NCBI RefSeq assembly: GCF_963921235.1
Contig: NC_086097.1
Coordinates: 14,012,001 to 14,076,000, forward strand
Source of the DNA: Mobula hypostoma
Taxonomy: Eukaryota
Direction: 5' to 3'
DNA length: 64,000 bases
Shown: in pieces, positions 5,257 through 59,856 of the stretch
Layout of the letters: every line of letters starts with the position of its first letter
Numbering within the stretch: position 1 is the stretch's first letter
Translations under genes and position numbers: made by a program
Notes under the pieces: model-generated
What the model saw: the letters and a program-made list of their open reading frames with translations, nothing else
Told to the model about the DNA's origin: nothing
Database searches by the model: none

Positions 5257-5475
5257 GCAACACACAAAATGCTGGAAGAATTTAGTAGGTCAGGCAGCAT
5301 TTGTGGAGAGGAATAGACTGGCAATGTTTCGGGCCAAGACTCTTCATTGGGATTTAGCCCAGAATGTCAGCTGTTTCTTCCCCTCCATAGACGCTGCCTG
5401 ACCTGCTGGATTCCTTCAGCACTCTGTGTGTGTTGGTGTGGATTCCCAGCATCTGCAGATTCTCTTGTGTTTCAG
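5257..5475. mobile_element. Head-to-head inverted pair of PLE termini
   Basis: caacacacaaaatgctgg...caggcagcat on the left, with the reverse-complement copy gctgcctgacctgctg...tgtgtgttg on the right. Confidence 0.75.
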
Positions 5476-6324: not shown

Positions 6325-6422
6325 TGGTCCTGAAGAAGTGTCTCGGCCCGAAACGTCAGCTGTTTATTCATTTCCATAGGTGCTGCCTGACCAGCTGAGA
6401 TCCTCCACATTTTGTGTGTGTC
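6325..6422 (+). mobile_element. PLE terminus with hammerhead-like core
   Basis: gtcCTGAAGAagtgtctcggcccGAAACGTC (core 6330-6357) followed by the PLE terminal sequence. Confidence 0.75.
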
Positions 6423-6749
6423 ACTAAGATCATAGCTCTTCTTCATTCTGATGTTTGCTCTGGACAACAACTGAAGACCTAGATCCATCATGTGACACAG
6501 CACATAATGACGATGACAAGGAGTGCTGAAAAACTACACTCTGCAGCTACCTGTGGGTCCAGCAAAAGAATATCTTAAATAGACATCACAGAAATACGCC
6601 ACTCAGCTCATCTAACCATTGCTTCACTATTCCCACCTGCGCTTCATACCTCCTTTGTCAGGTACAACTCAGCGCCTCCCTTTTTATCACATTGTACTAT
6701 CTGCAACTCCTTATTGTCTCCACCTATCACTTTCCGCTCTCTGTCCCTG

Positions 6750-7105
6750 TCTCCAGTCACCCCTCTACTGCCTGACTCCGTCTACCCATCAACCCTGCCA
6801 CACCTGGATCCACCAATCGCCTGCCAACTCCTGCCTCACCCTTCTCTCTTCCTGCTTCATAGTGGCTGTCCCCAACTTCCTGACGAAGGGTCTCGGCCCG
6901 AAACCTCGGCTGTACCTCTTCCTAGAGATGCTGCCTGCTCCACTGCGTTCACCAGCAACTTTTATGTGTGTTGCTTACACACTCAGTCCTGGTGCAGGGA
7001 CCTGACCTAAAACATCGATTATCCCTCTGCTCCTTGACCCATGGAGTTCCTCCTGCAGCTTGTTTTCCCTCCAGATTCCAGCACCTGCGGTATATTGTGT
7101 CTCCA
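6750..7105 (+). mobile_element. Old PLE 3' region containing a young PLE terminus (about 6879-6973)
   Basis: The young part CTGACGAagggtctcggcccGAAAcctc...gcgttcaccagcaac matches 15171-15630 and 38537-39135. The host copy resumes with cagtcctggtgcaggg...aaaacatcga. Confidence 0.7.
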
Positions 7106-15170: not shown

Positions 15171-15630
15171 CACACATCAAAGTTGCTGGTGAACGCAGCA
15201 GGCAAGGCAGCATCTCTAGGAAGAGGTACAGTCAACGTTTCGGGCCGAGACCCTTTGTCAAGACTAACTGAAGGAAGAGTGAGTAAGGGATTTGAAAGTT
15301 GGAGGGGGAGGGGGAGATGCAAAATGATAGGAGAAGACAGGATGGGGAGGGATGGAGCCAAGAGCTGGACAGGTGATTGGCAAAAGGGATATGAGAGGAT
15401 CATGGGATAGGAGGCCCAGGGAGAAGGAAAAGGGGGAGGGGGGGAAACCCAGAGGATGGGCAAGGGGTGTAGTCAGAGGGACAGAGAGAGAAAAAGGAGA
15501 CAGAGAGAAAGAATGTGTGTATATAAATAAATAACGGATGGGGTACGAGGGAGAGGTGGGACATTAGCGGAAGTTAGAGAAGTCAATGTTCATGCCATCA
15601 GGTTGGAGGCTACCCAGACAGAATATAAGG
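15171..15630 (-). mobile_element. Young PLE 3' fragment (end of GIY-YIG coding region, 3' region, terminus)
   Basis: Near-identical to 38537-39000. Flanked by the perfect 11-bp TSD taacctggctc (15160-15170 and 15631-15641). Confidence 0.9.
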
Positions 15631-15664
15631 TAACCTGGCTCTCTATTCACAGATACTACCTGCC

Positions 15665-15950
15665 CAACACATGCAAAATGCTGGAGGAACTCAGCAAGTC
15701 AGACAGCACCTATGGAAATGAATAAACAGTTGACATTTCGGGCCAAAACACTTCTTCAGGACTAGAAAGGAAGGGGGAAGTTGCCAGGATAAAAAAGCGG
15801 GGGACTGAGAAGAAGGATGAGCTAGAAGATGAAGCTAGGTGGGTGGGAAAGGAAAAGAGCTGGGGAAGAAGAAATCTGATGAGAGAAGAGACTGGACCAT
15901 AGGAGAAAGGGAAGAGGAAGGGGACCCAGGGAGATGTGTTAGACAGGTGA
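15665..15950 (-). mobile_element. Older PLE terminus and purine-rich 3' region
   Basis: caacacatgcaaaatgctggaggaactcagc...gacatttcgggcc...ttcttcaggact. Confidence 0.8.
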
Positions 15951-17654: not shown

Positions 17655-18535
17655 ATTTCAAAGATCAAAGTAACTTTATTATCAAAATACGTATGTTACC
17701 ATATACAACCCTGAGATTCATTTTCTTAAGAGCATACTCAATAAATCCATAAACACGAGGAAATCTGCAGATGCTGGAATTTCAAGCAACACACATAAAA
17801 GTTGCTGGTGAACGCAGCAGGCCAGGCAGCATCTCTAGGAAGAGGTACAGTCGACTATACCTCTTCCGAGAGATGCTGCTTGGCCTGCTGCGTTCACCAG
17901 CAACTTTGATGTGTGTTGCTCAACAAATCCATAATAGTATCAATAAAAGACCAAACCAACATGGGTGTTCAGTGTGCAAAAGACAACAAACTATGCAAAT
18001 ACAGAAAGAGAAGTAATAAAAATAAATAAATAAGCAATAAATGTCGAGACCACGAGATGAAGAGTCATTGAATCCATAGGTTGTGGGAATATTTCAGTGA
18101 TGGAGTACATGGAGTGAAGTTATCCATTTTGATTCAAGAGCCTGATGGCTGAGAGGTAATAACTGTTCCTGAACCTGGTGATGTGATTCGTGAGGCTCCT
18201 GCACATAATTCCTGATGGCGACAGCGAGAAGAGAGCATGCTCTGGGCAGCGTACGCTTGAGATGATGGATGCTGCTTTCCTGCGACAACGCTCCATGAGA
18301 ATGTGCTCAATGGTGGGCAGGGCTTTACTTGTGATGGATTGGGGTCTATCCATTACGTTTTGTAGGATTTTTTAATCAAGGGCATTCTGGACTGTAATAC
18401 TGCCAGTCAATATACTCACCGCCACAAATCGAAGATTGTCAAAGTTTTAGATGTCATGCCGAATCTTCACAAACTTCTAAGGACGTAGAGGTGCTGCCGT
18501 GCTTTCCTTGTAATTGCATTTGCACCCTGGGCCCA
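17655..18535 (-). mobile_element. Rex1/Babar-type LINE 3' fragment hosting a PLE fold-back insertion
   Basis: ORF 18120-18353 (ERCRRKAASII...HALFSLSPSG...TRFRNSYY). Confidence 0.85.
17753..17918. mobile_element. Palindromic (fold-back) PLE-terminus insertion
   Basis: Arms 17785-17852 and 17853-17920 (64/68 complementary, no spacer). 16-bp TSD ctcaa(t/c)aaatccataa at 17737-17752 and 17919-17934. Confidence 0.9.
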
Positions 18536-20089: not shown

Positions 20090-20315
20090 GAAGCGCAAGA
20101 GGTTCGGCAGATGTCGGATATCCAGACTAACACACATGCACAATGCTGGAGACACTCAGCAGGTCAAACAGCATCAATGGTGAGGAATAAATAGCCGACC
20201 TTTCATCAGGACTCCCACATCATGTATTATGAAGGGTCTCGGCCCAAAACATCAGCTCTTTATTCCTCTCCAGAGATGCTGCCTGACCTGCTGAGCTCCT
20301 CCAGCACTTTGCTTC
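20090..20315. mobile_element. Head-to-head inverted pair of PLE termini
   Basis: atgctggagacactcagcaggtc...ttcatcaggact on the left, tgaagggtctcggccc...gctgcctgacctgctgagctcctccagca on the right. Confidence 0.75.
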
Positions 20316-20409
20316 TGTAATAAACATAAAATGTTTGGAATATTTAGCCGGCCAGTCCGCATCTGCAAAGAGGGAGTGAGTTAATGTTTCAAATCAAATA
20401 CTGTTCATC

Positions 20410-23247: not shown

Positions 23248-23835
23248 TGAACACAAGAGATTCTGCAGATGCTGGAAATCCAGAGCAACACACACAAAAT
23301 GCTAGAAGAACTCAGCAGGTCAGGCAGCATCTAAGGAGGGGAATAAACAGTTGGTACTTCAGGCCGAGACCCTTCATCAGAACTGGAAAAGAAGGGGGAA
23401 GAGGTCAGAAAATGGAAAGGAAAGGGGTAAGATGCCATAAACTTATTGCAAGCCTTTTTTGAGGAAAAAAGTCCAGCAGGAATCGAAGTTGGCAGAAACC
23501 TTCTGTGTCCAAACGTCATTGAATTTACTTTCCAGTATTTCCTGTCCTTTCTCCTATGGTCCACTCTACTATCCTATCTGATTCCTTCTTCCCCAGCTCT
23601 TTACCTTTCCTATTGACCTGGCTTCACCTATCACCTTCCAACTAGTCTCCTTTCCTTCTCTCAACCTTTTTTTTTATTTGAGCATCTTCCCCTTCCTTTT
23701 CAGTCCCGAAGAAGCCTTCCACCTGAAATATTGATTTATTCATTTCCATAGATGCTTCCTGACCTCTTAAGTTCCTTCAGCATTTTGTGTGTGTTGCTCA
23801 GGATTTTGAGTATCTGTAGACTTCCTGGTGTTTAT
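23248..23835. mobile_element. Inverted pair of PLE termini with spacer
   Basis: Minus copy at about 23248-23430 and plus copy at about 23540-23835. Confidence 0.8.
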
Positions 23836-24026: not shown

Positions 24027-24462
24027 TTGGTCGTGGTGGTGGCATCCGTTAGTCTCGGGAGACCATGGACCTGCGCCTGGAAAGTCTTGCTTCAGTCTGT
24101 GTTAGAGCAGCGTCTGTTGTAGCTGTAGAGGCCCACACGGGAGTGACAGTCTCTGCCACATCGACTGTACTCGAAGGCGCTGTCCTCCAGTGTAATCTTG
24201 GTGCTGTTTTTCCGACGAGTGTGCTTTTCTTCAGCAGCAAGCCTCAGCTTCTCTCCTCCTCTTTTTAGACCTCTGCGTAGTTCCAGCCTCCAGCGAGAGC
24301 GATCGCTTGTGATGTCCTCCCACCTCTCGACGGTCATTTTCAGTGACTTCATGTCTCGCTTGCAAACGTCTTTGAAATGAAAATGGGGCTGCCCTTGTGC
24401 TCTCTTGCCGGAGGCCAGCTCCCCGTACAGCAGGTCTTTCGGGATCCTCCTATTATCAAGCA
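24027..24462 (-). mobile_element. RTE-clade LINE 3' fragment with C-terminal zinc-finger remnant
   Basis: RIPKDLLYGELASGKR..G.P...FKDVCKRDMK...WE...DRSRWR and SRCGRDCHSRVGLYSY.RRC, followed by a short 3' UTR. Confidence 0.9.
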
Positions 24463-24489
24463 ACCATTTATACTAATTCAGTTTTTATT

Positions 24490-30879: not shown

Positions 30880-32215
30880 CCCAATGCTCTGAGTAAAACA
30901 TGGACCAACATGGAAGCTCCTATCAGGCATCATAGCCACCAAGCTGAAGGAATATGTGTATAAATTCCTGAGCCCTGCTCAGAGGGGGTTAGGGAATGGA
31001 AGCAGAGGCTCCAAGCACCAGCTACTGGTAGACAAAGCAGTCATGTGAGACTCCTAAGACTAGGCAAACCAACCTAACACAGCCTGGATCAGCTACCAGA
31101 AAGCATATGTCTCAATGCCCCACACATGGTCCTGGAATGCCTGTCTCTGTACAAGGTCAACAAGACACTAAGGACCTTCATCAAGGACTCACTGGGCTGT
31201 TGGAGGACAATGCGAGAAGTTAACTCAAAGCCAATAGCAGAAGTGGCCATCAGATGTGGAATATACCAGGGAGATGCACTATCCCTACTGCTGTTCTGCA
31301 TAGGCTTGAACCCCCCCCCCCTCAGCCAGATCATCTCAAAGAGTGGATATGGGTACAGGCTCAAGAGTGGAGTGACCATCAGCATCCTCCTGTACATGGA
31401 TGACATCAAGCTGTATGCCAGAGATGAAAGAGACATTGACTCACTAATCCACCTGACAAGGGAGTATAGCAGAGACATTGGGATGTAATTTAGACTGGAA
31501 AAGTGCAGCCAGATGGTGGTGAAAAGAGGAAAACTCATCAAGACCGAAGGAGTCGAGTTTCCTGAAGGCTACATACCAGATGTACGGAACTACTACAAGT
31601 ACCTGCAGGCGCATGGAAGCCACAATGAGGACTCAAGGAAGGATGCAACATCCAAGTACCTCCAAAAAGCAAGGAAGGTCCTAATGAGCCAGCTGAATGG
31701 GAAGAAGAAGATCAGAGCCATCAACACATTCGCCCTATCAGTCATCAGATACCCAGCCACAACAGTGCGTTTCCCAAGGAACAAACTGAAAGCCGCTGAC
31801 ATCAAGACCTGGAAACTACTAACAATACATGGAGGATTCCATCCAACGTCCAACTTCGGGCAAAAGTACACCCCCCGGAATAAAAAGAAGATAGGGACAT
31901 GGAAGTGTCAAGGATACAGTCCTGGAAGAAATGCAAAAAATCCACGGGCATGTCAGGAAGATGGCCCCTAAAGATGACCTGCTAGGAGAATACCTGTGAC
32001 AGCAGGCAGGGACATGGAAATGGAAGTGGGTGAAGCAGAGCCAGAGGACCAGAGGCTATGGCAGGACAAGTCACTGCACAGAATGTACCATCATCACCAG
32101 ATATCAGAGGTGGCTGACATAAGAAAGTCCTACCAATGGCTGGAAATGGCAGGGCTGAGGGACAACACAGAGATATGTCTCATAGCTGCACAAGATCAAG
32201 CGCTGAGCACAAGAA
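30880..32215 (+). mobile_element. R4/Dong (Rex6-like) clade non-LTR retrotransposon, disrupted RT fragment
   Basis: GIYQGDALS.LLFCIGLNP, LLYMDDIKLYA, DIGM*FRLEKC, YKYL, LNGKKKIRAINTFA..VIRY, W.DK.LH.MY and AAQDQALSTR motifs, with stops and frameshifts. Confidence 0.9.
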
Positions 32216-34360: not shown

Positions 34361-35784
34361 CCGGTGATTCAGGGACATGCTTGTCCCAGCATGTGAAATC
34401 AGCTCTGGCAGACTGGGTGGATAAGACCTACAGTGAGATCCAATGGCTAGGAAGGTGGTACATCGATGCACCTTGGAACACTAAGGGCATGACAAGGCAC
34501 AGAAGAAGTCATGGTCATACACAGCAACAAAGGAAGACCCAGTCTTCCAGAGAGAGTGGAACTTGTACTGAACACTGTGGTGTTCCTGTTAGCTTGTGTT
34601 AAGACTAGCTGCTACCCATGCACATGCTAGTTTAAAATACACATTCTAATTAAGTTGTCATGGTGTTTACTTAGTCCATGATAATTAATGACCAGAACTT
34701 TCTCGTCTTCAGGTAGTTTGGCGATGGAAGCATGGTGACATTTATGCCTCTGCACAACCCTCGGACTGTGTTGGCCATTGACACAAAACAACACATTTAC
34801 TGTATAATTTAACTTTTAGAGGTACTGCTCAGAACAGGCCCTTCCAGCCCTTCGAGCCGTGCTGATTAGAGGCATAGATTACACACAGTCCGCCCCAACA
34901 CAACCCAACAACCCATGAATTAGAGGAATGGACCACATCTTGGCAAACTTCTTCCATCATTATAGAGTAATAGAGCACTACAGAACAAAAAGAGGCCCCT
35001 TTGACCCACCTAGACTGCCTAGTCCCATCAACATGTACCTGGACCACAGCCTTCCAGACCCCTCCCATCCATGTACCTATCCAAATTTCTCTTAAATGTT
35101 GAAATTGTACCTGCATCCTCCACTTCTGCTGGCAGCTCATTCCACACTCTCAGCACCCTTTGAATTCAATGTGACCTCAACAGGAGACCCTTTTTTTCAT
35201 GCTGTTGCCTCCTTCAAAGACAAATCAGATTATGACGAGCTCAAAATAATCCTTTTGTAGTCTCATTTGAAGCCAAAGGGAAAATGTTTCCCCATTAAAA
35301 GCTTTAGACAGGTCTGCAATAAAGAGCTTTAACAACAAAAAAACTAACATCATGCACACTTACATGAACATAGTTTGTAAATACAGCAGTGAAACCAGTT
35401 ACACACATGAATGAAAAATTAATAGGTGTTCACTAGATGCTGGAAATCTGGAGCAACACACAAAATGCTGAAGGAATTCCACAGGTTAGACAGCATCTAT
35501 GGAGAGTCAACATTTCAGATCAAGAACCTTCATTGGGACATATACAAGTTACCTGGGACTGAATCTATTTGCTACAATGAGTTCCTCTCGCACTTTGTGT
35601 GTTAGTGTTTGATTCAGTTGGCATTGGTTGAGAGAATATCCCCAAACTACACTTCAGATGCGTTAAATTCATGACTGGGTCATCACACTCGGTTAGTTTG
35701 TTCCAAGTAACAAACTTCTTCAGTAATAGTTTGCTAGCTTGATCTGTTTATTTTAATACTGTGGGACAATCAGTGACCATTCAT

Positions 35785-36080
35785 AGATAGACAGACAGAT
35801 AGATAGATGGATAGATAGACAGATATGTGGACAGATAGATAGATGAATAGATAGATTGATAGACAGATATATTGACAGATAGACAGATTGACAAATAGAT
35901 AAATAGACAGACAGATGAATAGGCAGATGAATAGATAGATAGAGAAAAATACCCTGATAATTTAGATAGACACGTTGATTGAAATACCGATAGATAGATA
36001 GATGGAGAGTGATAGACAAACAGAGAGAGACAGAATGGGAGATATCCAGGTAGATAGATAATTAGACAGCCAGACAGACT
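35785..36080. repeat. Degenerate (TAGA)n/(CAGA)n microsatellite
   Basis: Visible tetranucleotide repeats. Confidence 0.9.
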
Positions 36081-38536
36081 GCAAGCCAGAAGCATCTATT
36101 CTCCTGACAGTGGCAGTTTAACCTGATGGGGTTAAAGAGGGTTAACCTTGGACCTTGCAGGAACACACTTTAGGCTTATCCTTGGACCTGCGTTATTTGG
36201 AATTAGTGAGATGTAATAGTATGGAGCTTTCATGCCATCAATTTTTACTTTAATTACCAAGATCTCTGTAAGGAAATGTCACAATGCGGAGACATTTGTG
36301 CAGGAAAGATTACCACCAGGTCCTGCCAAGTCTTTGCATAGCTGTGCTGGCAGATAGGATTCATATTCAAATCTGTTACAGCTGTCGCCTGTGCCCAGCA
36401 GAGCACCCTCGGTTCATAAGTGACCCAAATGCTCCCCCCTCCCCCTTCCTCCTTGTATCCTCTCTATCCCCCGGAGGTTACTAATCCTGCCTTCTCTGCG
36501 TACACTGACAGCAGGGAAGGAGTTAGCAAGATTAGACTTACTTAATAATGCAGGAATATTATCAATTATATAAAAAAAGTGGAAGGCTGGCCTTTTGAAG
36601 ATTGGAATCTGCCTGCAAAATACTTGGGTGGGGGAAGTGGGGGGATGGTGTTGAATGGATTTAACCTCAGCAATTATCTCAGTGAAGGAGCTGGACTCTC
36701 TAAATTACAGGCACTCTCGCCACTGAAATCAGTTCAGGATAGGGGTCACACTTCCGGAGTGGCCATATCTTCCAAATGAAAGGGCAGATGCACATTTGGC
36801 CACCTAGGACCACCACAGATCAGATACACCCTTCCACAAAGTTATCAACAATGAAGCAGCTGGAAGAAGCTTTGGTGCTTTGCTTTTAATTTAAAACCTC
36901 GTTTTGAATGTTCAGGTCAGCCAACTATTCTCAGCCCCTGTCCCTGTCCCTGTCCCAAGCCTTATTAAAGAAAAATGATGCGCCTTGACATTACCCAGAA
37001 CCTAAGGTGACCAAAGCTGCCAAGACTGCAGAATCCACCCTGTTTACATTGCAGGATTCCAGAGCACTGGCTGCAACAGATAAACCATCTTCCATGCATA
37101 ATCTCAAGCGCACAACAGCCACTTTCTCTTTAAAAGGCTTTGCGCATCTGTAACGAGTTGGCCCGAATCCTGACATCCACAAACGCTTCATAAACAGCTC
37201 TGCTTCAGTTTTTCTTTTGGCTTGATGTTTATTCCTGCGCTCCCAAACAGGCCGCACTTGGGCAGCAATGATCACTCAGGTTGACATGCTGGTTTTAAAA
37301 TGGCCTTTATTCAAGAGGTTTGGAAAATGGGGTTGGTCTCAAGTTCAAGAGGAATAATCAAGCTTCCGGCTCTGTCCACGTTGACATACTGACACTGTTG
37401 GCTAAGTTTATTTTATTAATTTATAGGATATTGTCATCATCAGCATGTAATTGCCTTTGAAAAGACAATGGTGAGCCACCAGCTTTATCTGCCGCTGCCC
37501 TTGTGGTGAAGGTGTTTCCACACTGTTGTTGAGCTGGGAGTCCCACCCAGTACAACAAATGATTCTGGTATAATTTCATCAGGATTTGCATTTATTCATT
37601 TTTGAGGATTAACCAATTTATTGGTATTGGTTTGGTTTATAATTGTTACATGGACTAAGATACCGTGAAGAGTTTGTCTTCCATACTGTTCATACAGATC
37701 AAATCACCACACAGTGTATTAGGGTAATGCAGAGTTCAGAGATCAAAGTAAACATATTATCAAAGTACATATGTCATCATATAAAATCCTGAGATTCATT
37801 TTCTTGTGGGCTCTCACAACAAATACAAAGAACCATAATAGAATCAATGAAAGACCGCACTCAACAGAACAGACAACCGAAGCGCAAAAGACGAACTGTG
37901 CAAGTACAAAAAGAAAGAACAAAGGAAATAATAATGATAAATAAGCCATAAATATGTCACTCACACCAATATACGTGTTTAATAATGGCCTTCATTCAAG
38001 AGCACCATGCGAGAAATGCTGGAGGAACTCAGCAGGTCAGGATAAAGGTCTGGAAGCTGAGATTGGTTTCCTGTTCAGGAGGAATAGACAAGCCTCTGGT
38101 TCTGCCAATTCTACAATTCCTGATAACATTATACCAGAATCATTCTTTGTTCTGAGTGTAATTCACTGCTCAACACCAGTGTGGGAGCACCTTCAGCAGG
38201 ACTGCAGAGTTTATGCTGGTGGCTCACCATCGTCTTTTCAAGGGCAATTACATTTGAACATGAGATGAAGAGCAGTTGAAAGTGAGTGCAAGGTAAAACA
38301 ATAACAAAACAGAATAAAGTATAAAGCTACAGAGAATGTTTGGAACAGATTCATTTAAAACAAACAGCAAAATGTGGCCTTGGCGTTAAACAGCCAACGT
38401 AACCTTGGGAAGCGCTGGGGACAGCCCGCAAGTGTTGCCACACGTTCCACTGCCCACCTTCTACAGCAGAACAACACAGGCAATGATAAAAACAACAAAA
38501 CAAAGCAACAACAGCAAAACAAGCCCCGTTTCCACC

Positions 38537-39135
38537 CAACATACATCAAAGTTGCTGGTGAACGCAGCAGGCCAAGCAGCATCTATAGGAAGAGGCGCAG
38601 TCGACGTTTCAGGCCGAGACCCTTCGTCAGGACTAACTGAAGGAAGAGTGAGTAAGGGATTTGAAAGTTGGAGGGGGAGGGGGAGATGCAAAATGATAGG
38701 AGAAGACAGGAGGGGGAGGGATAGAGCCGAGAGCTGGACAGGTGATTGGCAAAAGGGGATACGAGAGGATCATGGGACAGGAGGCCTAGGGAGAAAGACG
38801 GGGGGGGGGGTGACCCAGAGGATGGGCAAGAGGTATATTCAGAGGGACAGAGGGAGAAAAAGGAGAGTGAGAGAAAGAATGTGTGCATAAAAATTAGTAA
38901 CAGCTGGGGTACGAGGGGGAGGTGGGGCCTAGCGGAAGTTAGAGAAGTCAATGTTCATGCCATCAGATTGGAGGCTACCCAGACGGAATATAAGGTGTTG
39001 TTCCTCCAACCTGAGTGTGGCTTCATCTTTACAGTAGAGGAGGCCGTGGATAGACATGTCAGAATGGGAATGGGATGTGGAATTAAAATGTGTGGCCACT
39101 GGGAGATCCTGCTTTCTCTGGCGGACAGAGCGTAG
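38537..39135 (-). mobile_element. Young PLE 3' fragment: GIY-YIG endonuclease C-terminus, 3' region and terminus
   Basis: The minus-strand frame 39135-38929 reads LRSVRQRKQDLPVATHFNSTSHSHSDMSIHGLLYCKDEATLRLEEQHLIFRLGSLQSDGMNIDFSNFR* with no internal stop. Confidence 0.9.
38599..38634 (-). ncRNA. Minimal type-I hammerhead ribozyme motif (PLE-associated, dimer type)
   Basis: AGUC-CUGACGA-AGGGUCUCGGCCU-GAAA-CGUC/GACU: complete core, stem I AGUC:GACU, stem II hairpin, palindromic ACGU stem III and a GUC triplet. Confidence 0.7.
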
Positions 39136-39672
39136 ATTAACTTCTCTAACTGCTTCAGCCCCTGGTACCTCTACAATGCTGGCTGTGAATTCCAGGAATT
39201 AGACCCAGGGATGTTGTTGACACATTTCTGAGTCAGGATAACGTATAAACTGGAGTAGACCTGCAAGTATAGAGTTCCCAAACACTTGTTGTCCTGGTCC
39301 TATTGGTTGTAGAGGCTGCAGATTTGGTAGGTCTTTTCAGAGTGCCCCAGGTGAATAATTGCACTACATTATACAGATGGTACACACTGTGGCCACTGTA
39401 TACAAGGTGGGTATGGTGGTGTGGTGTGGAGTGAAGAGAACTGCTCAAATTCTTTTAGAAATGTGGTGCTTCAAGGCGGGTGCTTTGTCCTCAGTAGAGC
39501 TGAGCTTCTTAAATGGTGTCAGGTGTCTCAAATGGTATCGTAGCGCGATGTATTATCCACAATCATCCAAGCAAATAGAGAATTCATACACTTGATTTGT
39601 GCCTTGGAAATGGGAAATGATTTTTGTTGGGTCACTCTCTACAGGGTAGTCTGTTGTTGCAGCTAAAGTACC

Positions 39673-41421: not shown

Positions 41422-42116
41422 CAGAACATAGAATAGTACAGTACAGTACAGGCCCTTCGGCCCACAGAGTTATGCCGACCCTCAAACCCTGCCTCCCATA
41501 TAAGCCCCCACCTTAGATTCCTCCATATACCTGTCTAGTAGTCTCTTAAACTCCACGAGTGTATCTGCCTCCACCACTGACTCAGGCAGTGCATTCCACG
41601 CACCAACCACTCTCTGAGTAAAAAACCTTCCTCTAATATCCCCCTTGAATTTCCTACCCCTTACCTTAAAACCATGTCCTCTTGTATTGAGCAGTGGTGC
41701 CCTGGGGAAGAGGCGCTGGCTATCCACTCTATCTATTCCTCTTAATATCTTGTACACCTCTATCACGTCTCCTCTCATCCTCCTTCTCTCCAAAGAGTAA
41801 AGCCCTAGCTCCCTTAATCTCTGATCATAATGCATACTCTCTAAAACAGGCAGCATCCTGGTAAATCTCCTCTGTACTCTTTCCGATGCTTCCACATCCT
41901 TCCTATAGTGAGGCGACCAGAACTGGACAGAGTACTCCAAGTGTGGCCTAACCAGAGTTTTATAGAGCTGCATCATTACATCACGACTCTTAAACTCTAT
42001 CCCTCGACTTATGAAAGCTAACACCCCATAAGCTTTCTTAACTACCCTATCTACCTGTGAGGCAACTTTCAGGAATCTGTGGACATGTACCCCCAGATCT
42101 GCTCCTCCACACTACC
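41422..42116 (-). mobile_element. Young CR1 3' fragment with an open 180-aa ORF2 C-terminus, nested in a Rex1-type remnant (41315-42470)
   Basis: MLAFISRGIEFKSRDVMMQLYKTLVRPHLEYSVQFWSPHYRKD...WNALP. aagta is repeated at 41417-41421 and 42117-42121. Confidence 0.92.
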
Positions 42117-46949: not shown

Positions 46950-47780
46950 ATAAACAGAAGAGATTCTGCAGATGATGGAAAACCAAAGCAACACACACAA
47001 CATGCTGGAGGAACTCAGCAGGTCAACAGCATCTCTGGAAGTAAACAGTCAGTCGACATTTCGGGCTGAGCCCATTCTTCAGGATTGAGAAGGAAGAGAG
47101 AAGGTGCCAGAATAAGAAAAAGTAGGGGAAGGGGAAGGAGGTTATCTAGAAGGTGATAGGTGAAGCCAAGTGGGTGGGAAAGGTCAAGGGTTGGAGAGGA
47201 AAGAATCTGATAGGAGAGGAGAGTGGACCATGGAAGAAAGGGAAGCAGGTGGGGACCCAGAGGAAAGCAATAGGCAGGTGAGAAGAAGTAAGAGTTAGAG
47301 TAGGGAATAGAAAAACACAATGAAAAGCAAAAAAAAACAAGGACACAAGAGGTACTGCAGATGCTGGAAATCTAGAGCGATACATCGTATGCTGGAGGAG
47401 CTCAGCATGTCAGGCAGCATCTAGGGATGGGAATAAACAGACAATGTTTGAAGCCAAGACCCTTCACCAGGATTGGAAAGGAAAGGGGAAGAAGTCAGAA
47501 TAAGAAGGTGAGAGGAGGAGGAAGTACAAGGCGGCAGGTGATAGGTGAAACCAGGAGAGGGCGAGGGGTGAAGTAAAGAGCTGGGAAGTTGATTGGTGGA
47601 CGAGGTAAAGGGCAGGAGAAGGGGGAATCTGATTGGAGAGGACAGAAGACCGTGGAAGAAAGGAAAGGGGGAGGAGAGCCAAAGGGAGGTGATGGGCAGG
47701 TAAGGGGAGAAGGTGTGAGTGGGGAGCAGTGAAGGAGAAGAGCAAGGAGTAATTCCCAGAAGTTTGAGAAACTGATGATT
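46950..47780 (-). mobile_element. Two tandem same-orientation PLE termini (46950-47320 and 47340-47780)
   Basis: Each begins with acaagag...ctgcagatg.tggaa and contains a hammerhead-like remnant (47051-47086 and about 47439-47475). Confidence 0.8.
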
Positions 47781-50647
47781 GTTCAAAAGAACAATAAATA
47801 TGAATAGAAAAGCAACCTTATAAAACACAGCATTCAAGTAACTGAATGTGGCCATATGTACTGTACATAAAATTAGCTTTTTACATATTCTGACTGTATG
47901 TATAGTGGGTGAAGCTAGGTGCCGAGTATCTGTATGTAAGGTGACCCTAACAGGAAATGATAAGGTGACAAAGTGACTCCTGGCAAGAGGGCATCTGAAA
48001 ACACAATAGGGTGGTGACTGTCCGTGTAGGTATGAGTGTAGGTGTAAAGTGGCCATGCATGGGGGGATGAAAGGTGATGGACGGGAGCAGGGAGGAGTAT
48101 GCAGTGGGAGTAGGGGGTGGTGGGGTAGATTAATGGGTGGAGATGTTGATCAGTCTGATAGCTTGGGGGAAGTAATAGTTTCTGAGAAACGGAGAATGTT
48201 GGAAATTCTCAGCAAGTCATGCAGTATCCGTGGAGAACGAAACTGAGTTAATGGCTTCAGGTCAATGATCTTCCATCATTTCTTCAGTAGTGTGCTGTGC
48301 TGAAAAGGGGTGGTGAAACTTATTAAGGGATGATTGCATACTTGCAAGAGGAGAAGTATTTATGAGACCGTGGGGATAGGACAGGGGAGTGGATAGCCCC
48401 ACCAATGAGCTGCCTCGTAGTTAAAGGGCCAAGCACCCTCCTGCATTACGGCATCATCCTATGATTCTATATTCACACTGCTTAAGGCATAAAGAGGACT
48501 GGAGAAGTAATTTTACACATGGAATCACAGCCCTATTGCATATTCATGGCATGACACCAATTTTTTGAAATGTCCTCATTATGGGAAGCCAATTGAAGAG
48601 CCACATGTGTGCAATTAATTGGACCCTGGATGGTTCAAAAGCCTGCTATTCCATAGATGTCCCGTCTGATTTGCTGTTGTTCTTGCAGTGACCCAAGAAA
48701 CCAGATACCGAGGCCGCGCTGACCCGTCAACAGCGTCTGACACGCCGGCACCCGCAACACAACATGAAGGCTTCGATTGTGCTCAGAACAAATTGCCTGC
48801 CACCCCCTCCCACCCTAACCCCAGTCTCCCTTCCACACAGTCCTGCCAGATTTCGAGCATAAGCTAAGCATATTAATTCTAACCTTTCTGTGGACAGGCA
48901 GTGTGTGACTTCTAACACTGTTGTGTTCAGGAGATCCCTGGAGTTTTTAATCACAGATCCAGCACAGTGAGCTTATTGTCCATATGCCTCCTGTAGAGCT
49001 GTGCTTCTGTCAAGATCTGGATACTTGCCCTAAGACAGAACACCTTCTCGGAGATTCTTTCCCTATTTATTCCCGCACAGGATGTGGGTGCCAGCATCTG
49101 TTACCGTCCCTAATTACTGCTGTACTGACTGTTTTGCCAGTCCACTTTAAAGTGCATTTAAACACATTGTTAAACTGGGCATAGTTAGCAGGTTTCCTCT
49201 CATAAAGGATATTAAAGACCACATTTTTCTCAAGGATAATCGAGTCTAAAAACAGAGGACTTAGATTTAAGGTGAGAGGGAGAAGATTTGAGAGGAACCT
49301 GACCGGGGACGTTTTCACACAGAAGATGGCGGGTACAGAGGAAAACCTGTCAGAGGAATGAGGTATCAAGAACAAGTTGCCAGAGGAGGTGGTAGAGGTG
49401 GGGACTACAACATTTGGGCCAGTACGTAGATGCCTCTCAAAGTCCAACCCTACATCCCCATCGTAAGGGTGGAAGCAGGTAAGGCTGGCCAACTGGGCCG
49501 TGGTGAAGCTGGAGAGGTCAATCCTCTGCACAGTGGATACAATGGATTGCAGAAACATTGATGAACTCCAACCATACCATCGACTTTGGACCATGGAGAT
49601 GGGAGGTCTTCAATGGCCTAAGCTCCACTGGGAGTTAAGGGCCCAAGAAGAAGACAGACGAGCATATAGGCCACATGCAAGCAAAATGGACCAGCTTGGA
49701 TAGAGGTTGAGGTGCCCCTACGTGCCTGTTTACATGCAGTATGACTATATGACAGTAAGATTTTTTAAAAATATTTTTAAAAGATGTCCAAAAGATCCAT
49801 AAGACCACAAAACATAGGAGCACAAGTCGATTATACATGTCATGATTACTGATACTAACTTCTTATTCAGGATTCATCTAATTACTCGAATTTCAACTCC
49901 CAAGATACTGAGATGGGATTTGAGTTCATTCCTTCAGATCAATAGTCTAGGTCTCTCAGTGTTAGTCCACTAACACACCCGCTGTGCTAACACAAGTCCA
50001 CTAACACCCTACTGGATTGGTAAAGGAGGGGAGAGGCATTAAAGAATGAAGTCCTCAATCAATAGCAATGCAATCGAGCAGTTAGACTCCTTCTGGACAA
50101 ATTGCTAGTGACGCCTTACATTTTAAACAAAGTTCAGTGACATGCACAGAAAAGTCATAAGTATCTGGGAGCACATTTCAAACTGAACTGCAAATTGCAG
50201 TCTTTAACAATAAGCCCGGGAGGCAGGCATCGTACCTGCAATTCCAACAAAAGGACTAAAATGATCTTGTAAGTTGCTATAGATTTAGAGAAAAGTAAAA
50301 CAAAAAAGTCCTGAGAATTGGGACTTTCCGGTCTCAGAATGGTTTGCCTGCGTCTAGTGACATAAAATTTGAAAGAAAATAGATTTTTTTTGCCAGGGAT
50401 TAATTAGTCATAATAATTGTAGTCGACTCAGGCTGCAGTCGATTACGGCTTATTATCCAACTAATCACAGTGGCTTTCCTTCTCAGTGTTCTGGCTGTCA
50501 GCAGCAGCAAGTCTTTGGGCTATCCTCCATTCTGTTAAAATTCACTCTTAAAAGCCAGCTTTTTATTTTGTTTGCTCTTCTTAAATGTGAAAGATCAATC
50601 CTCCTAAACTACAGACAGTATATGTATATGTATACACAAATGGAAAT

Positions 50648-50650
<3 letters not shown>

Positions 50651-50705
<55 letters not shown>

Positions 50706-50782
50706 GCGCGCGCACACACACACACACACACACAAACGCGTGCACACACACATACACACACACACACACACACACGTGCGCG

Positions 50783-50813
<31 letters not shown>

Positions 50814-50821
50814 AAACGCGT

Positions 50822-50889
<68 letters not shown>

Positions 50890-50900
50890 ACACAAGCACA
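50651..50900. repeat. Compound (CA)n/(CG)n microsatellite with a duplicated higher-order unit
   Basis: (CA)n-CGTG(CG)n-(CA)n-AACGCGTG occurs twice. Confidence 0.95.
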
Positions 50901-52519
50901 CATTTCCCATCCACAGCCCTCACAAGCCGCAAGAGCTGACTTAATAAATGAACTCCTTCCCTCTTGCCTGGGAGCAAGTGCAGATTAATATCTGCCTACC
51001 TTGTTACTTAATTCATTATGGAATAGCAGTTAATTTGATTTGATATTATTTTAATAAAATTCTGTAATATATTAGATTGTTTCAGGCTATCAAAATAATT
51101 TTCCAATTATTACGGTCGCTCAAGCAAGTCTTTTTCACAGCGGCAGTTGGTCTGGCTCAGAATACATTAGTGGCAACAGCTTCACGCTGGTCAGAGGAGT
51201 GAGGAAAAAAATAATATGCATGATTACACCAGAAATGTTACTGCCTATAATGTGCACCCATAGAATGCAGAGACTCCCTGGGTACTGATGTTCCCCCTGC
51301 AAAGCGACAAATGTATGCGATTAGGTTCTTTGGTAAAAGAGCAGGAATTACAGTAGTTCAAGGTTAATTAACTCTTTCAATGCTGACTGTTTGACAGCAC
51401 GGTTTGCTGGCTTTGCCAGATCTGGCAGCTTGCTCTTATGATCCTATGGGAGTCACTGTTCCACAGCTGGTTACCCTTGGTGCGACTGATTGGCTGGAAT
51501 ACCACTGAAGCTATCCCTGCCAGGCTTGCTTTACCCTTTAAAATTAATTTTCTCCCTCTAGCCTCTGCTTCTAGTTCAATTGAATTGCATTTGTTTTTTT
51601 GCTTTAAACCCAGACTATTTATTGAGATCAATATTTTTAATCACAGACTGTGGTGACTCCATTGGAATGCCTGCTTCCCGATTTGATACTGAACTATGAA
51701 GATTCAGATGGACCTTTGGTGACTGGACATTGACAGAGGTGCCAGAGCTATTGAGTTGAGAGATGGGAGTACAAATGGATGCAGTATTCACCGTTGCCAA
51801 ACTGCGAGTCTTCATTGGTACCAGGTGAAAATTAGTTTGGGAATATTATTGAAGATGACAGAGCCCCTGGCAAAATCTACAAGCCTGGTTTGCACCTGAG
51901 GTTAAAAAAGTAACATAGAGACAGCGAGACAGACAGAGAGAGAGAGATAGGTAGATAGGTAGCTGGGTAGAATTTAAAGGAAGTTGGAAACCACTTATCA
52001 TCCCCACATGATAAACCTCTGCCATACCCCTAAAATATACACTACAAATATAAAAATATCTACATTTGCATATTGTTAGAATAATTGCACAGATTTAACA
52101 AGTAATCCAATAACCAATACCGAAGGTTTGGGAAGATGCTCAAATCCCACCTACTGAGCAACACAGTAACAGAAGGCTTGACGGGGGGGTGAGTTATGAG
52201 TAGGGAGGGATGGAGTGAGAGAGAGAGAGGCAGAGAAAGGAGGAGAGAGAAAGGGGGAGAGAGAGAGAGAGAGAAATAATTGGAATTAGGAATTTACTGA
52301 ATCAGTTGATGGGTCATATACTCATCCCCATAAGACCTTATGATGTCCATGCTATTTACGACGTCGCTCCAAGAGCATTAATGGGTACCCTATCTGCAAG
52401 ATAGGAATCCCTGCAATTAGATAAAACAACAATTAGAAAATACTCAGCAAAGAAGAGTTTATATTTTAGGTCAATGACCTGTCATCGTAGCTGCTCTTTA
52501 CAGTATCTATATACTCTTA

Positions 52520-52839: not shown

Positions 52840-53120
52840 ACACACACAAAATGCAGGAGGAAATTAGCAGATCAGGTAGCATATATGGAGAGGAGTAAAG
52901 AGTAAAAATTCTACTTTCCTCTTCTCCACCCCCCTTTCTTCTCCCCCCTACCTACTTATTCTTGTATCTTATCCTTACTTTCCAGTCCTAATGAAGGGTC
53001 TTGGCCCACAACATCAATTCTTTATTTTTCTCTGTAAATGTTGCCTGACCTGCTGAGTTCCTCCAGCATTCTGTTTGAGCTATTCCAGATTTCCAGCATC
53101 TGAAGAATCTCTTGTGTTTA
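52840..53120. mobile_element. Inverted pair of PLE termini
   Basis: acacacaaaatgcaggagg...gcagatcagg on the left, cagtcctaatgaagggtcttggccc...ccagcatctg on the right. Confidence 0.75.
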
Positions 53121-59742: not shown

Positions 59743-59856
59743 AGGCCGAAATGTCGACTGTACCACTTCCTAGAGATGCTACCTGGCCTGCTGCGTTCAC
59801 CAGCAACTTTGATGTGTGTTGCTTGAATTTCCAGCATCTGCAGAATTCCTGTTGTT
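59743..59856 (+). mobile_element. Young PLE terminus truncated within the hammerhead motif
   Basis: ggccGAAAtgtcgactgtacc...gcgttcaccagcaac...ccagcatctgcag. Confidence 0.8.

What the first reader, a model, noticed from the sequence alone, without database searches (positions are those of the whole stretch)
38599..38634. Intact minimal hammerhead ribozyme in a ray Penelope-like element terminus, with about ten relatives in the window
Seen: the minus strand reads AGUC CUGACGA AGGGUCUCGGCCU GAAA CGUC/GACU. This is the full hammerhead core (CUGANGA...GAAA...GUC), with stem I AGUC:GACU, a short stem II and a loop-less self-complementary ACGU stem III. Related motifs occur at 6330-6357, 6880-6908, about 15229-15265, about 15728-15763, about 20230-20256, 23349-23384, 47051-47086, about 52985-53018 and 59743-59760, many of them decayed at CpGs. 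Established: PLEs carry minimal hammerheads whose palindromic stem III lets them cleave as dimers. Inference: this family spreads a self-cleaving RNA module at high density. Any host transcript crossing this site on the minus strand could be cut when paired with another copy.
Basis: partly seen in the sequence, partly recalled or inferred. Interest (0 to 1): 0.75.

Follow-up and report, generated by a model that had tools for sequence, protein, structure and literature searches.

The report
Penelope retrotransposon minimal hammerhead, dead copy
The 36 bases are a complete minimal hammerhead ribozyme motif in the end repeat of a shortened copy of a Penelope-like jumping gene, a known arrangement that here exists in about 33,000 identical copies and is likely inert at this lone site.

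Summary
Observation right, kind known. The minus strand at 38634-38599 has the whole minimal type-I hammerhead core. It lies in the 3' pseudo-LTR of a 601-bp, 5'-truncated Penelope-like element (PLE) of Neptune/Nematis type. Full-length copies elsewhere carry one RT + GIY-YIG ORF between two such motifs about 3.5 kb apart. The exact 36-mer occurs 32,886 times in the 3.48-Gb genome (control 0). The window holds 23 related termini, but only this one passes an intact-hammerhead descriptor. Stem II was misread: the A is the usual extra base, and this young lineage has G10.1-U11.1 where older ones have G-C. The core is invariant across three lineages (0 of 11 columns differ, flank 26 of 64) but decays like its flank after insertion (3/380 against 24/1748, P=0.46). 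So selection acts on source elements, not on scattered copies. Folding predicts self-blocked monomer and dimer. Host-transcript cutting is unsupported. Short copies start about ten times more often at the motif's 5' edge than at its cut site.

The parts
38599..38634 (-). Minimal type-I hammerhead motif; predicted cut between 38603 (C17) and 38602 (G1.1); G10.1-U11.1 variant of the youngest lineage
38537..39137 (-). 5'-truncated PLE copy, 601 bp, 99% identical to its closest genome relatives; ends at the inner 3' end point and lacks the optional ~36-nt tail
38932..39135 (-). Last 68 codons of the element's ORF (end of the GIY-YIG domain); 65 of 67 aligned residues identical to the uninterrupted ORF of full-length copy L057
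38537..38928 (-). Non-coding 3' pseudo-LTR (pyrimidine-rich part, hammerhead, conserved downstream block)
38633..38680 (-). Polypyrimidine tract ending in CAG (38639-38637) and TAG (38635-38633) at the 5' edge of stem I; looks like a splice acceptor (inference; no spliced form found)
   Evidence: sequence
15171..15631 (-). Older copy of the same family (90% identical), hammerhead broken at C3 and G8
6878..6976 (+). Short same-family copy starting 30 nt before the cut site; palindrome broken
17758..17920 (.). Head-to-head pair of same-family ends whose junction is centred on the cut site
59744..59856 (+). Short same-family copy with half a hammerhead and the tail
6327..6436 (+). Older-lineage terminus, core kept, stems broken
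15663..15764 (-). Older-lineage terminus, decayed
20193..20329 (+). Older-lineage terminus, decayed; inverted partner at 20116-20211
23273..23427 (-). Older-lineage terminus, A15.1 lost
46975..47129 (-). Older-lineage terminus, core kept, stem I and palindrome imperfect; nearest core-bearing copy on the same strand (8.4 kb away)
52943..53094 (+). Older-lineage terminus, core lost

Best explanation
This is the minimal hammerhead motif in the 3' pseudo-LTR of a 5'-truncated Penelope-like retrotransposon copy, and it likely works only in transcripts of full-length, two-ended elements, likely with help from the element's protein, while this lone copy is likely inert. Shown: the motif; the truncated element around it; full-length relatives with two motifs 3.5 kb apart around one RT + GIY-YIG ORF; a core that is constant between lineages but decays neutrally after insertion. 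Inferred: in a transcript of a full-length or tandem element the two motifs swap stem I strands and pair their ACGU palindromes to form two active cores, which would trim unit-length RNA out of longer transcripts. Free RNA is predicted to sit in a self-blocked fold, so cutting would be slow and gated. Most reverse transcription reads through an uncut site, and because copying starts 65 or 102 nt downstream of the cut site, nearly every insertion, however short, drags the motif along. That explains the density.
For: Motif and palindrome. Element boundaries, two alternative 3' ends about 36 nt apart, and inverted partners. 14 of 20 loci picked by the ORF's 5' part have two same-strand motifs 3.5-3.7 kb apart; 2 of 20 (L057, L058) have an uninterrupted RT-to-endonuclease frame. 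Pfam finds RVT_1 (E 4e-5) and GIY-YIG (E 3e-4) in L057, both under the curated cut-offs. Across three lineages (47, 39 and 7 copies; 112 of 213 termini were long enough, 93 fell in these clusters) 0 of 11 core columns and 0 of 8 stem I columns differ, against 26 of 64 downstream flank columns (P=0.013 for the core). After insertion: core 3/380 against flank 24/1748 non-CpG mismatches (P=0.46); CpG sites 18/228 inside against 13/152 elsewhere (38 copies). Only 541 of 96,352 anchored ends match the start-at-cut-site pattern, about 1% after allowing for the pattern's three excluded letters. Papers: low activity even as dimer or trimer (PMC4209133, parts 1-2 read); protein-assisted cleavage, unprocessed RNA as the main insertion substrate, internal RT starts explaining the tail (PMC11167929, parts 1-2 read).
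Against: No cleavage was measured. The active-type dimer scores -9.5 kcal/mol against -28.3 for the best dimer and -10.0 for one monomer; this nearest-neighbour model ignores magnesium and tertiary contacts, and I ran no known-active control. The youngest lineage lost the typical G10.1-C11.1 pair (32,886 U against 4,891 C copies) and amplified anyway. No compensatory stem change was seen between the three lineages, and a downstream block of about 19 nt is nearly as constant as the core, so conservation does not prove catalysis. The profile was seeded with motif-bearing copies, which favours apparent conservation.
Confidence: 0.7

Rival explanations
1. The motif is kept in source elements for a non-catalytic job (protein binding, promoter or transcript start, splicing, or RT handling), and cleavage is vestigial in the youngest lineage.
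For: U11.1 dominates the young lineage. C at position 7 lets the core pair with the 15.2-17 strand in the predicted fold. Plain truncated copies start about ten times more often at the motif's 5' edge than at the cut site (against 45, 59). Hammerhead mutants did not affect insertion in vitro and no RNA-seq ends were found at the site in anole (PMC11167929). Naiad PLEs proliferate without canonical hammerheads (PMC8557442 passages).
Against: All 11 catalytic positions are constant across three lineages while N7, loop II and the flanks change. That pattern fits catalysis better than a generic binding site. The anole motif does cut with protein present.
Confidence: 0.22
2. One reading: dispersed copies cut host transcripts by pairing with another copy, at this site too.
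For: About 27 intact motifs per Mb make pairs inside long introns common. The palindrome allows pairing between any two copies. Tight inverted pairs are frequent but put the motifs on opposite strands.
Against: Only 1 of 23 termini in the window is intact. Predicted folds are self-blocked. Inserted cores are neither protected nor purged relative to flanks. Published activity is low without protein. Whether this site is transcribed is unknown.
Confidence: 0.07

Closest known systems
Minimal hammerheads (min-HHR) in the pLTRs of metazoan Penelope-like elements (Cervera and De la Pena 2014, PMC4209133; parts 1-2 of 4 read; 1 of its supplementary files could not be searched)
   Same: Type-I topology, full core, 4-5 bp helix I, extra base between A9 and 10.1, loop-less palindromic helix III, place in the pLTR, mostly lone motifs in truncated copies.
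   Different: G10.1-U11.1 in the youngest lineage; helix II of 3-4 bp; copy number (32,886 identical, roughly 90,000 intact by extrapolation) far above the about 9,000 and 4,000 reported for Xenopus tropicalis and coelacanth, though with another descriptor. The parts read name no cartilaginous fish.
PAc, Poseidon-clade PLE of Anolis carolinensis (Frangieh et al. 2024, PMC11167929; parts 1-2 of 4 read)
   Same: Hammerhead at the pLTR-ORF junction; two internal 3' end points that define an optional tail; tandem layout.
   Different: Here the ORF's first ATG lies downstream of the tail rather than inside stem II, and the protein has a C-x4-C-x2-C linker of Neptune/Nematis type. Protein dependence of cleavage is untested here.
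Neptune/Nematis clades of endonuclease-positive PLEs (Craig et al. 2021, PMC8557442; passages read)
   Same: RT, zinc-finger-like linker, C-terminal GIY-YIG; partial tandems, inverted 5'-truncated partners, 30-40 bp tail, hammerhead in the pLTR.
   Different: Clade not fixed by a tree here.
Non-LTR retrozymes (bioRxiv 10.64898/2026.07.22.740005; part 1, section 12 and passages read; supplements closed)
   Same: Type-I hammerheads derived from PLE pLTRs; found in the one cartilaginous fish that study sampled.
   Different: This copy is a lone truncated PLE end that includes ORF sequence, not a tandem non-coding unit.

Membership tests
min-HHR of metazoan PLEs | Core C3 U4 G5 A6 N7 G8 A9 ... G12 A13 A14 A15.1 ... 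U16.1 H17 | tested here: met
min-HHR of metazoan PLEs | Helix I of 4-5 bp and a helix II | tested here: met
   4 bp helix I plus a G-U pair; helix II 3-4 bp. No compensatory change seen among three lineages.
min-HHR of metazoan PLEs | Palindromic 15.2-16.2 with no loop 3 | tested here: met
   ACGU
min-HHR of metazoan PLEs | Extra base between positions 9 and 10.1 (typical, not in the paper's descriptor) | tested here: met
   A in 47/47, 38/39 and 7/7 copies of three lineages
min-HHR of metazoan PLEs | G10.1-C11.1 pair (typical, not in the paper's descriptor) | tested here: not met
   This copy and 32,886 exact matches have G-U; 4,891 have G-C; older lineages mostly G-C. The paper lists the pair among features outside its descriptor, so I file the motif as a member with a weakened pair.
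min-HHR of metazoan PLEs | Lies in the pLTRs of a PLE | tested here: met
min-HHR of metazoan PLEs | Self-cleaves as a dimer or with protein, not as a monomer | not testable with these tools
   Only folding energies were computed
Rfam hammerhead families | Score at the curated threshold | tested here: not met
   0 matches in the window; not filed under an Rfam family
Endonuclease-positive PLE | Single ORF with RT and C-terminal GIY-YIG | tested here: met
   L057, 1041 aa stop to stop; Pfam RVT_1 E 4e-5 and GIY-YIG E 3e-4, both below curated cut-offs; the window remnant is 97% identical to its end
Endonuclease-positive PLE | Partial tandems forming pLTRs, inverted 5'-truncated partners, optional 30-40 bp tail | tested here: met
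Neptune/Nematis-type PLE | CX2-5CxxC linker between RT and endonuclease | tested here: met
   C-x4-C-x2-C in L057 and others; criterion
Neptune clade | Placement by RT phylogeny | not tested
   No reference set was fetched
Non-LTR retrozyme | At least two consecutive non-coding tandem units, each with a complete hammerhead | tested here: not met
   Lone copy with ORF remnant

The most novel reading that the evidence does not exclude
The genome holds a fossil record of this ribozyme's life cycle. Short insertions start most often at the motif's 5' edge, marking where the element's RNA begins or is spliced, and show a sharp step at the cut site (541 there against 87 one base upstream), marking RNA cut in vivo. 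The youngest lineage weakened stem II and blocks its own core yet spread to tens of thousands of copies, so cutting is gated by the element's protein or by splicing. That would make the in vivo role of PLE hammerheads testable from genome data alone.
Probability: 0.15. Interest if true: 0.55.

Novelty: new member of a known kind. Interest (0 to 1): 0.2.

Why it matters
As a kind it is known since 2014. What this genome adds is scale and youth: 32,886 identical motifs, several hundred thousand relics by extrapolation, near-intact full-length elements and three lineages to compare. The role of PLE hammerheads in vivo is still open in the papers read, and this family gives a large natural data set for it, including a lineage that lost the G10.1-C11.1 pair. 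The particular copy flagged is one ordinary truncated insertion.

Tried and rejected
Chance match: rejected. Rfam scan: 0 matches. Idea that a shared 5' end at 39137 marks a 600-bp non-autonomous element: rejected, relatives continue upstream into the ORF.

Cut-site footprint. Patterns that demand three non-element letters before the start gave 194 matches at -5, 87 at -1, 541 at the cut site, 201 at +1 and 167 at +3. Of 70 cut-site loci inspected, 61 were joined to other element sequence, at least 18 through 3-5 nt microhomologies, 17 of them supplied by the motif's own complementarity, and 9 were plain truncations. Plain truncations in the controls were 7/30 (+1), 3/25 (+3), 3/30 (-1) and 1/25 (-5). 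That scales to about 70 against 47, 20, 9 and 8 (P=0.003 against equal rates). But +1 is nearly as high, the controls differ in letters excluded and CpG content, loci were the first listed rather than random, and RT pausing at stem I would give the same picture. Inconclusive. Perfect fold-backs centred on the cut site: only 71 loci.

Spliced form at the acceptor-like site: none seen. 18 of 30 copies starting at -30 have unrelated target DNA upstream, not a shared exon, and no such joint was among those listed (15 shown, 253 not shown).

Expression: no RNA holder listed. The runs laid were contigs, only guessed to be RNA, of organisms not shown to be this one; they covered repeats and left several non-repeat bins empty, which says nothing on expression, ends or strand.

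Host gene in the window: 119 reading frames (118 of the 195 frames of 55 aa or more outside repeats, plus the ORF remnant) gave one RT hit and no host family in Pfam. This is too insensitive to exclude an intron.

Lunse et al. 2016 on dimer cleavage was not held; I saw only its citation in a review passage. Searches for hammerheads in shark or ray PLEs found no paper on them apart from the retrozyme preprint's one cartilaginous fish; that does not show absence from print.

Full report
Observation. The minus strand at 38634-38599 carries the motif as described. It has a 4-bp stem I, the core CUGACGA, one extra A, stem II, GAAA, a CG palindrome, UC, and the predicted cut between 38603 and 38602. 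Rfam has no match in the window at its curated thresholds. The exact 36-mer occurs 32,886 times in the 3.48-Gb genome, on both strands equally, with 0 for the reversed control. The form with C at 11.1 occurs 4,891 times. The organism was not verified.

Surroundings. The motif lies in a 601-bp insertion at 39137-38537. Its first 204 bases encode the end of a GIY-YIG domain. Close relatives are up to 99% identical and continue upstream into RT sequence, so the window copy is 5'-truncated. Copies end either about 65 nt or about 102 nt after the cut site; the difference is the optional tail described for PLEs (PMC8557442 passages; PMC11167929). Of 20 loci fetched around the ORF's 5' part, 14 have two same-strand motifs 3.5-3.7 kb apart and 2 have an uninterrupted RT-to-endonuclease frame. 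Pfam finds RVT_1 and GIY-YIG in L057, both below the curated cut-offs. A C-x4-C-x2-C linker points to the Neptune/Nematis type; no tree was built.

Density. A profile built from nine window copies finds 23 termini in the window and 190 in 1 Mb sampled as 100 stretches of 10 kb at round coordinates on 14 large contigs. My descriptor passes 1 window copy, this one, and 27 in the sample, against 0 in reversed DNA. Extrapolated, that is about 660,000 termini and about 94,000 intact motifs; the sample is small and not strictly random.

Is the core under selection? Among 38 young copies, non-CpG core positions differ in 3 of 380 cells and flank positions in 24 of 1748 (P=0.46). CpG sites decay alike inside and outside the paired and core positions (18/228, 13/152). 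Inserted copies therefore decay neutrally. Between three lineages (47, 39 and 7 copies out of 112 usable of 213), 0 of 11 core columns differ against 26 of 64 downstream columns (P=0.013). Changes inside the motif fall on N7, loop II, position 11.1 and decaying CpGs. That fits selection in source elements. Caveats: the profile was seeded with motif-bearing copies, no compensatory pair was seen, and a block about 21-39 nt downstream is nearly as constant.

Can it fold? The monomer's best fold pairs G5-A6-C7-G8 with C15.2-G16.2-U16.1-C17 and locks the core (-10.0 kcal/mol; z -0.37 against shuffles). The active-type dimer scores -9.5 against -28.3 for the best dimer; with C11.1 it is -14.7 against -32.1. 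The model ignores magnesium, tertiary contacts and proteins, and no known-active control was run. The result agrees in direction with low activity of such dimers (PMC4209133) and with the protein-assisted anole motif (PMC11167929). An extra A after A9 moderately lowers the rate in a viroid hammerhead (PMC1636495, one passage). That G10.1-C11.1 matters most when stem II is short is recalled, not from a call.

Do insertions record cutting? If RT copied cut RNA, copies would start at G1.1. Patterns demanding three non-element letters before the start gave 541 matches at the cut site, 201 at +1, 167 at +3, 87 at -1 and 194 at -5, out of 96,352 anchored ends. Most cut-site cases (61 of 70 inspected) are inversion or deletion junctions, many using the motif's own complementary stems. 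Plain truncations scale to about 70, 47, 20, 9 and 8. This is a weak hint, open to RT pausing and composition effects. The 5' edge is much hotter. In the sample plus window 12 of 69 arms start between -35 and -26. The pattern for -30 has 660 matches; 18 of 30 inspected are plain insertions, 9 of them with a flank duplication of 6 nt or more. That is about 400 against at least 37,777 intact motifs (the exact denominator was not counted), roughly ten times the cut-site rate. A polypyrimidine tract and AG sit at that edge, as the Drosophila virilis intron end does at helix I, but no spliced form was found. About 99% of anchored ends do not start at the cut site, so the template was mostly uncut.

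Host transcripts. Nothing shows that this site is transcribed, and no intact partner lies within the window. The nearest same-strand copy with a core is 8.4 kb away and has a broken palindrome and stem I. The RNA and exon searches were uninformative and are listed under Tried and rejected.

Comparison. The motif meets the descriptor of the minimal hammerheads of metazoan PLEs (Cervera and De la Pena 2014) and departs only at the typical G10.1-C11.1 pair. It is not a retrozyme unit. Searches for such motifs in sharks or rays found no dedicated paper; a 2026 preprint reports retrozymes in one cartilaginous fish (its supplements were closed). Earlier notes of this scan reach the same reading many times: 110 notes in this genome fit the words, 8 were shown. 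They are not independent support.

Verdict. A correct catch of a known kind: a new member, notable for copy number and for a young lineage with a weakened stem II. The flagged copy is likely inert. Interest 0.2.

Noticed in passing
window 38611 (position 11.1); genome-wide: The youngest lineage carries U at 11.1, a change at a CpG: 32,886 exact U copies against 4,891 C copies. A natural test of whether the typical G10.1-C11.1 pair matters for spread.
   Followed up: partly
window 38633-38680 (-): Polypyrimidine tract plus AG at the 5' edge of stem I in all three lineages. In sense orientation in introns it could act as a splice acceptor, a more plausible host effect than cutting.
   Followed up: partly
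L341-L370; window 6878: Many short copies with target-site duplications start 26-35 nt before the cut site, at the 5' edge of the motif; this may mark the RNA's start or an RT stop at a hairpin.
   Followed up: partly
L161-L260; window 17758-17920, 20116-20329, 5259-5444: Tiny head-to-head pairs in which one arm ends at the inner 3' point and the other carries the tail; junctions often use the motif's complementary stems. This looks like two cDNAs primed from opposite nicks and joined by microhomology.
   Followed up: partly
window 39138-39162 (-): Just upstream of the 5' break, 12 bases match the element's own antisense strand near the ORF stop; possibly a scrap of an inverted partner. No target-site duplication was evident for this copy.
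   Followed up: no
L057 1178-4300 (+); L058: Full-length copies with an uninterrupted ORF of about 1,010 aa from the first ATG; the family is young.
   Followed up: partly
L173-L174, L195-L196; G000:C2:12242895-12243219: Short tandem duplications of the element's 3' end, including three motif-bearing units 145 bp apart; a possible retrozyme-like array.
   Followed up: no
window 41482-42111 (-), 24092-24472 (-), 31078-31968 (+): Fragments of other retroelements: CR1-like and RTE-like RT ends (family names recalled, not from a call) and a further RT fragment with a weak RVT_1 hit.
   Followed up: no
window 35767-36100, 50598-50967: Long GATA-type and CA-type simple repeats.
   Followed up: no
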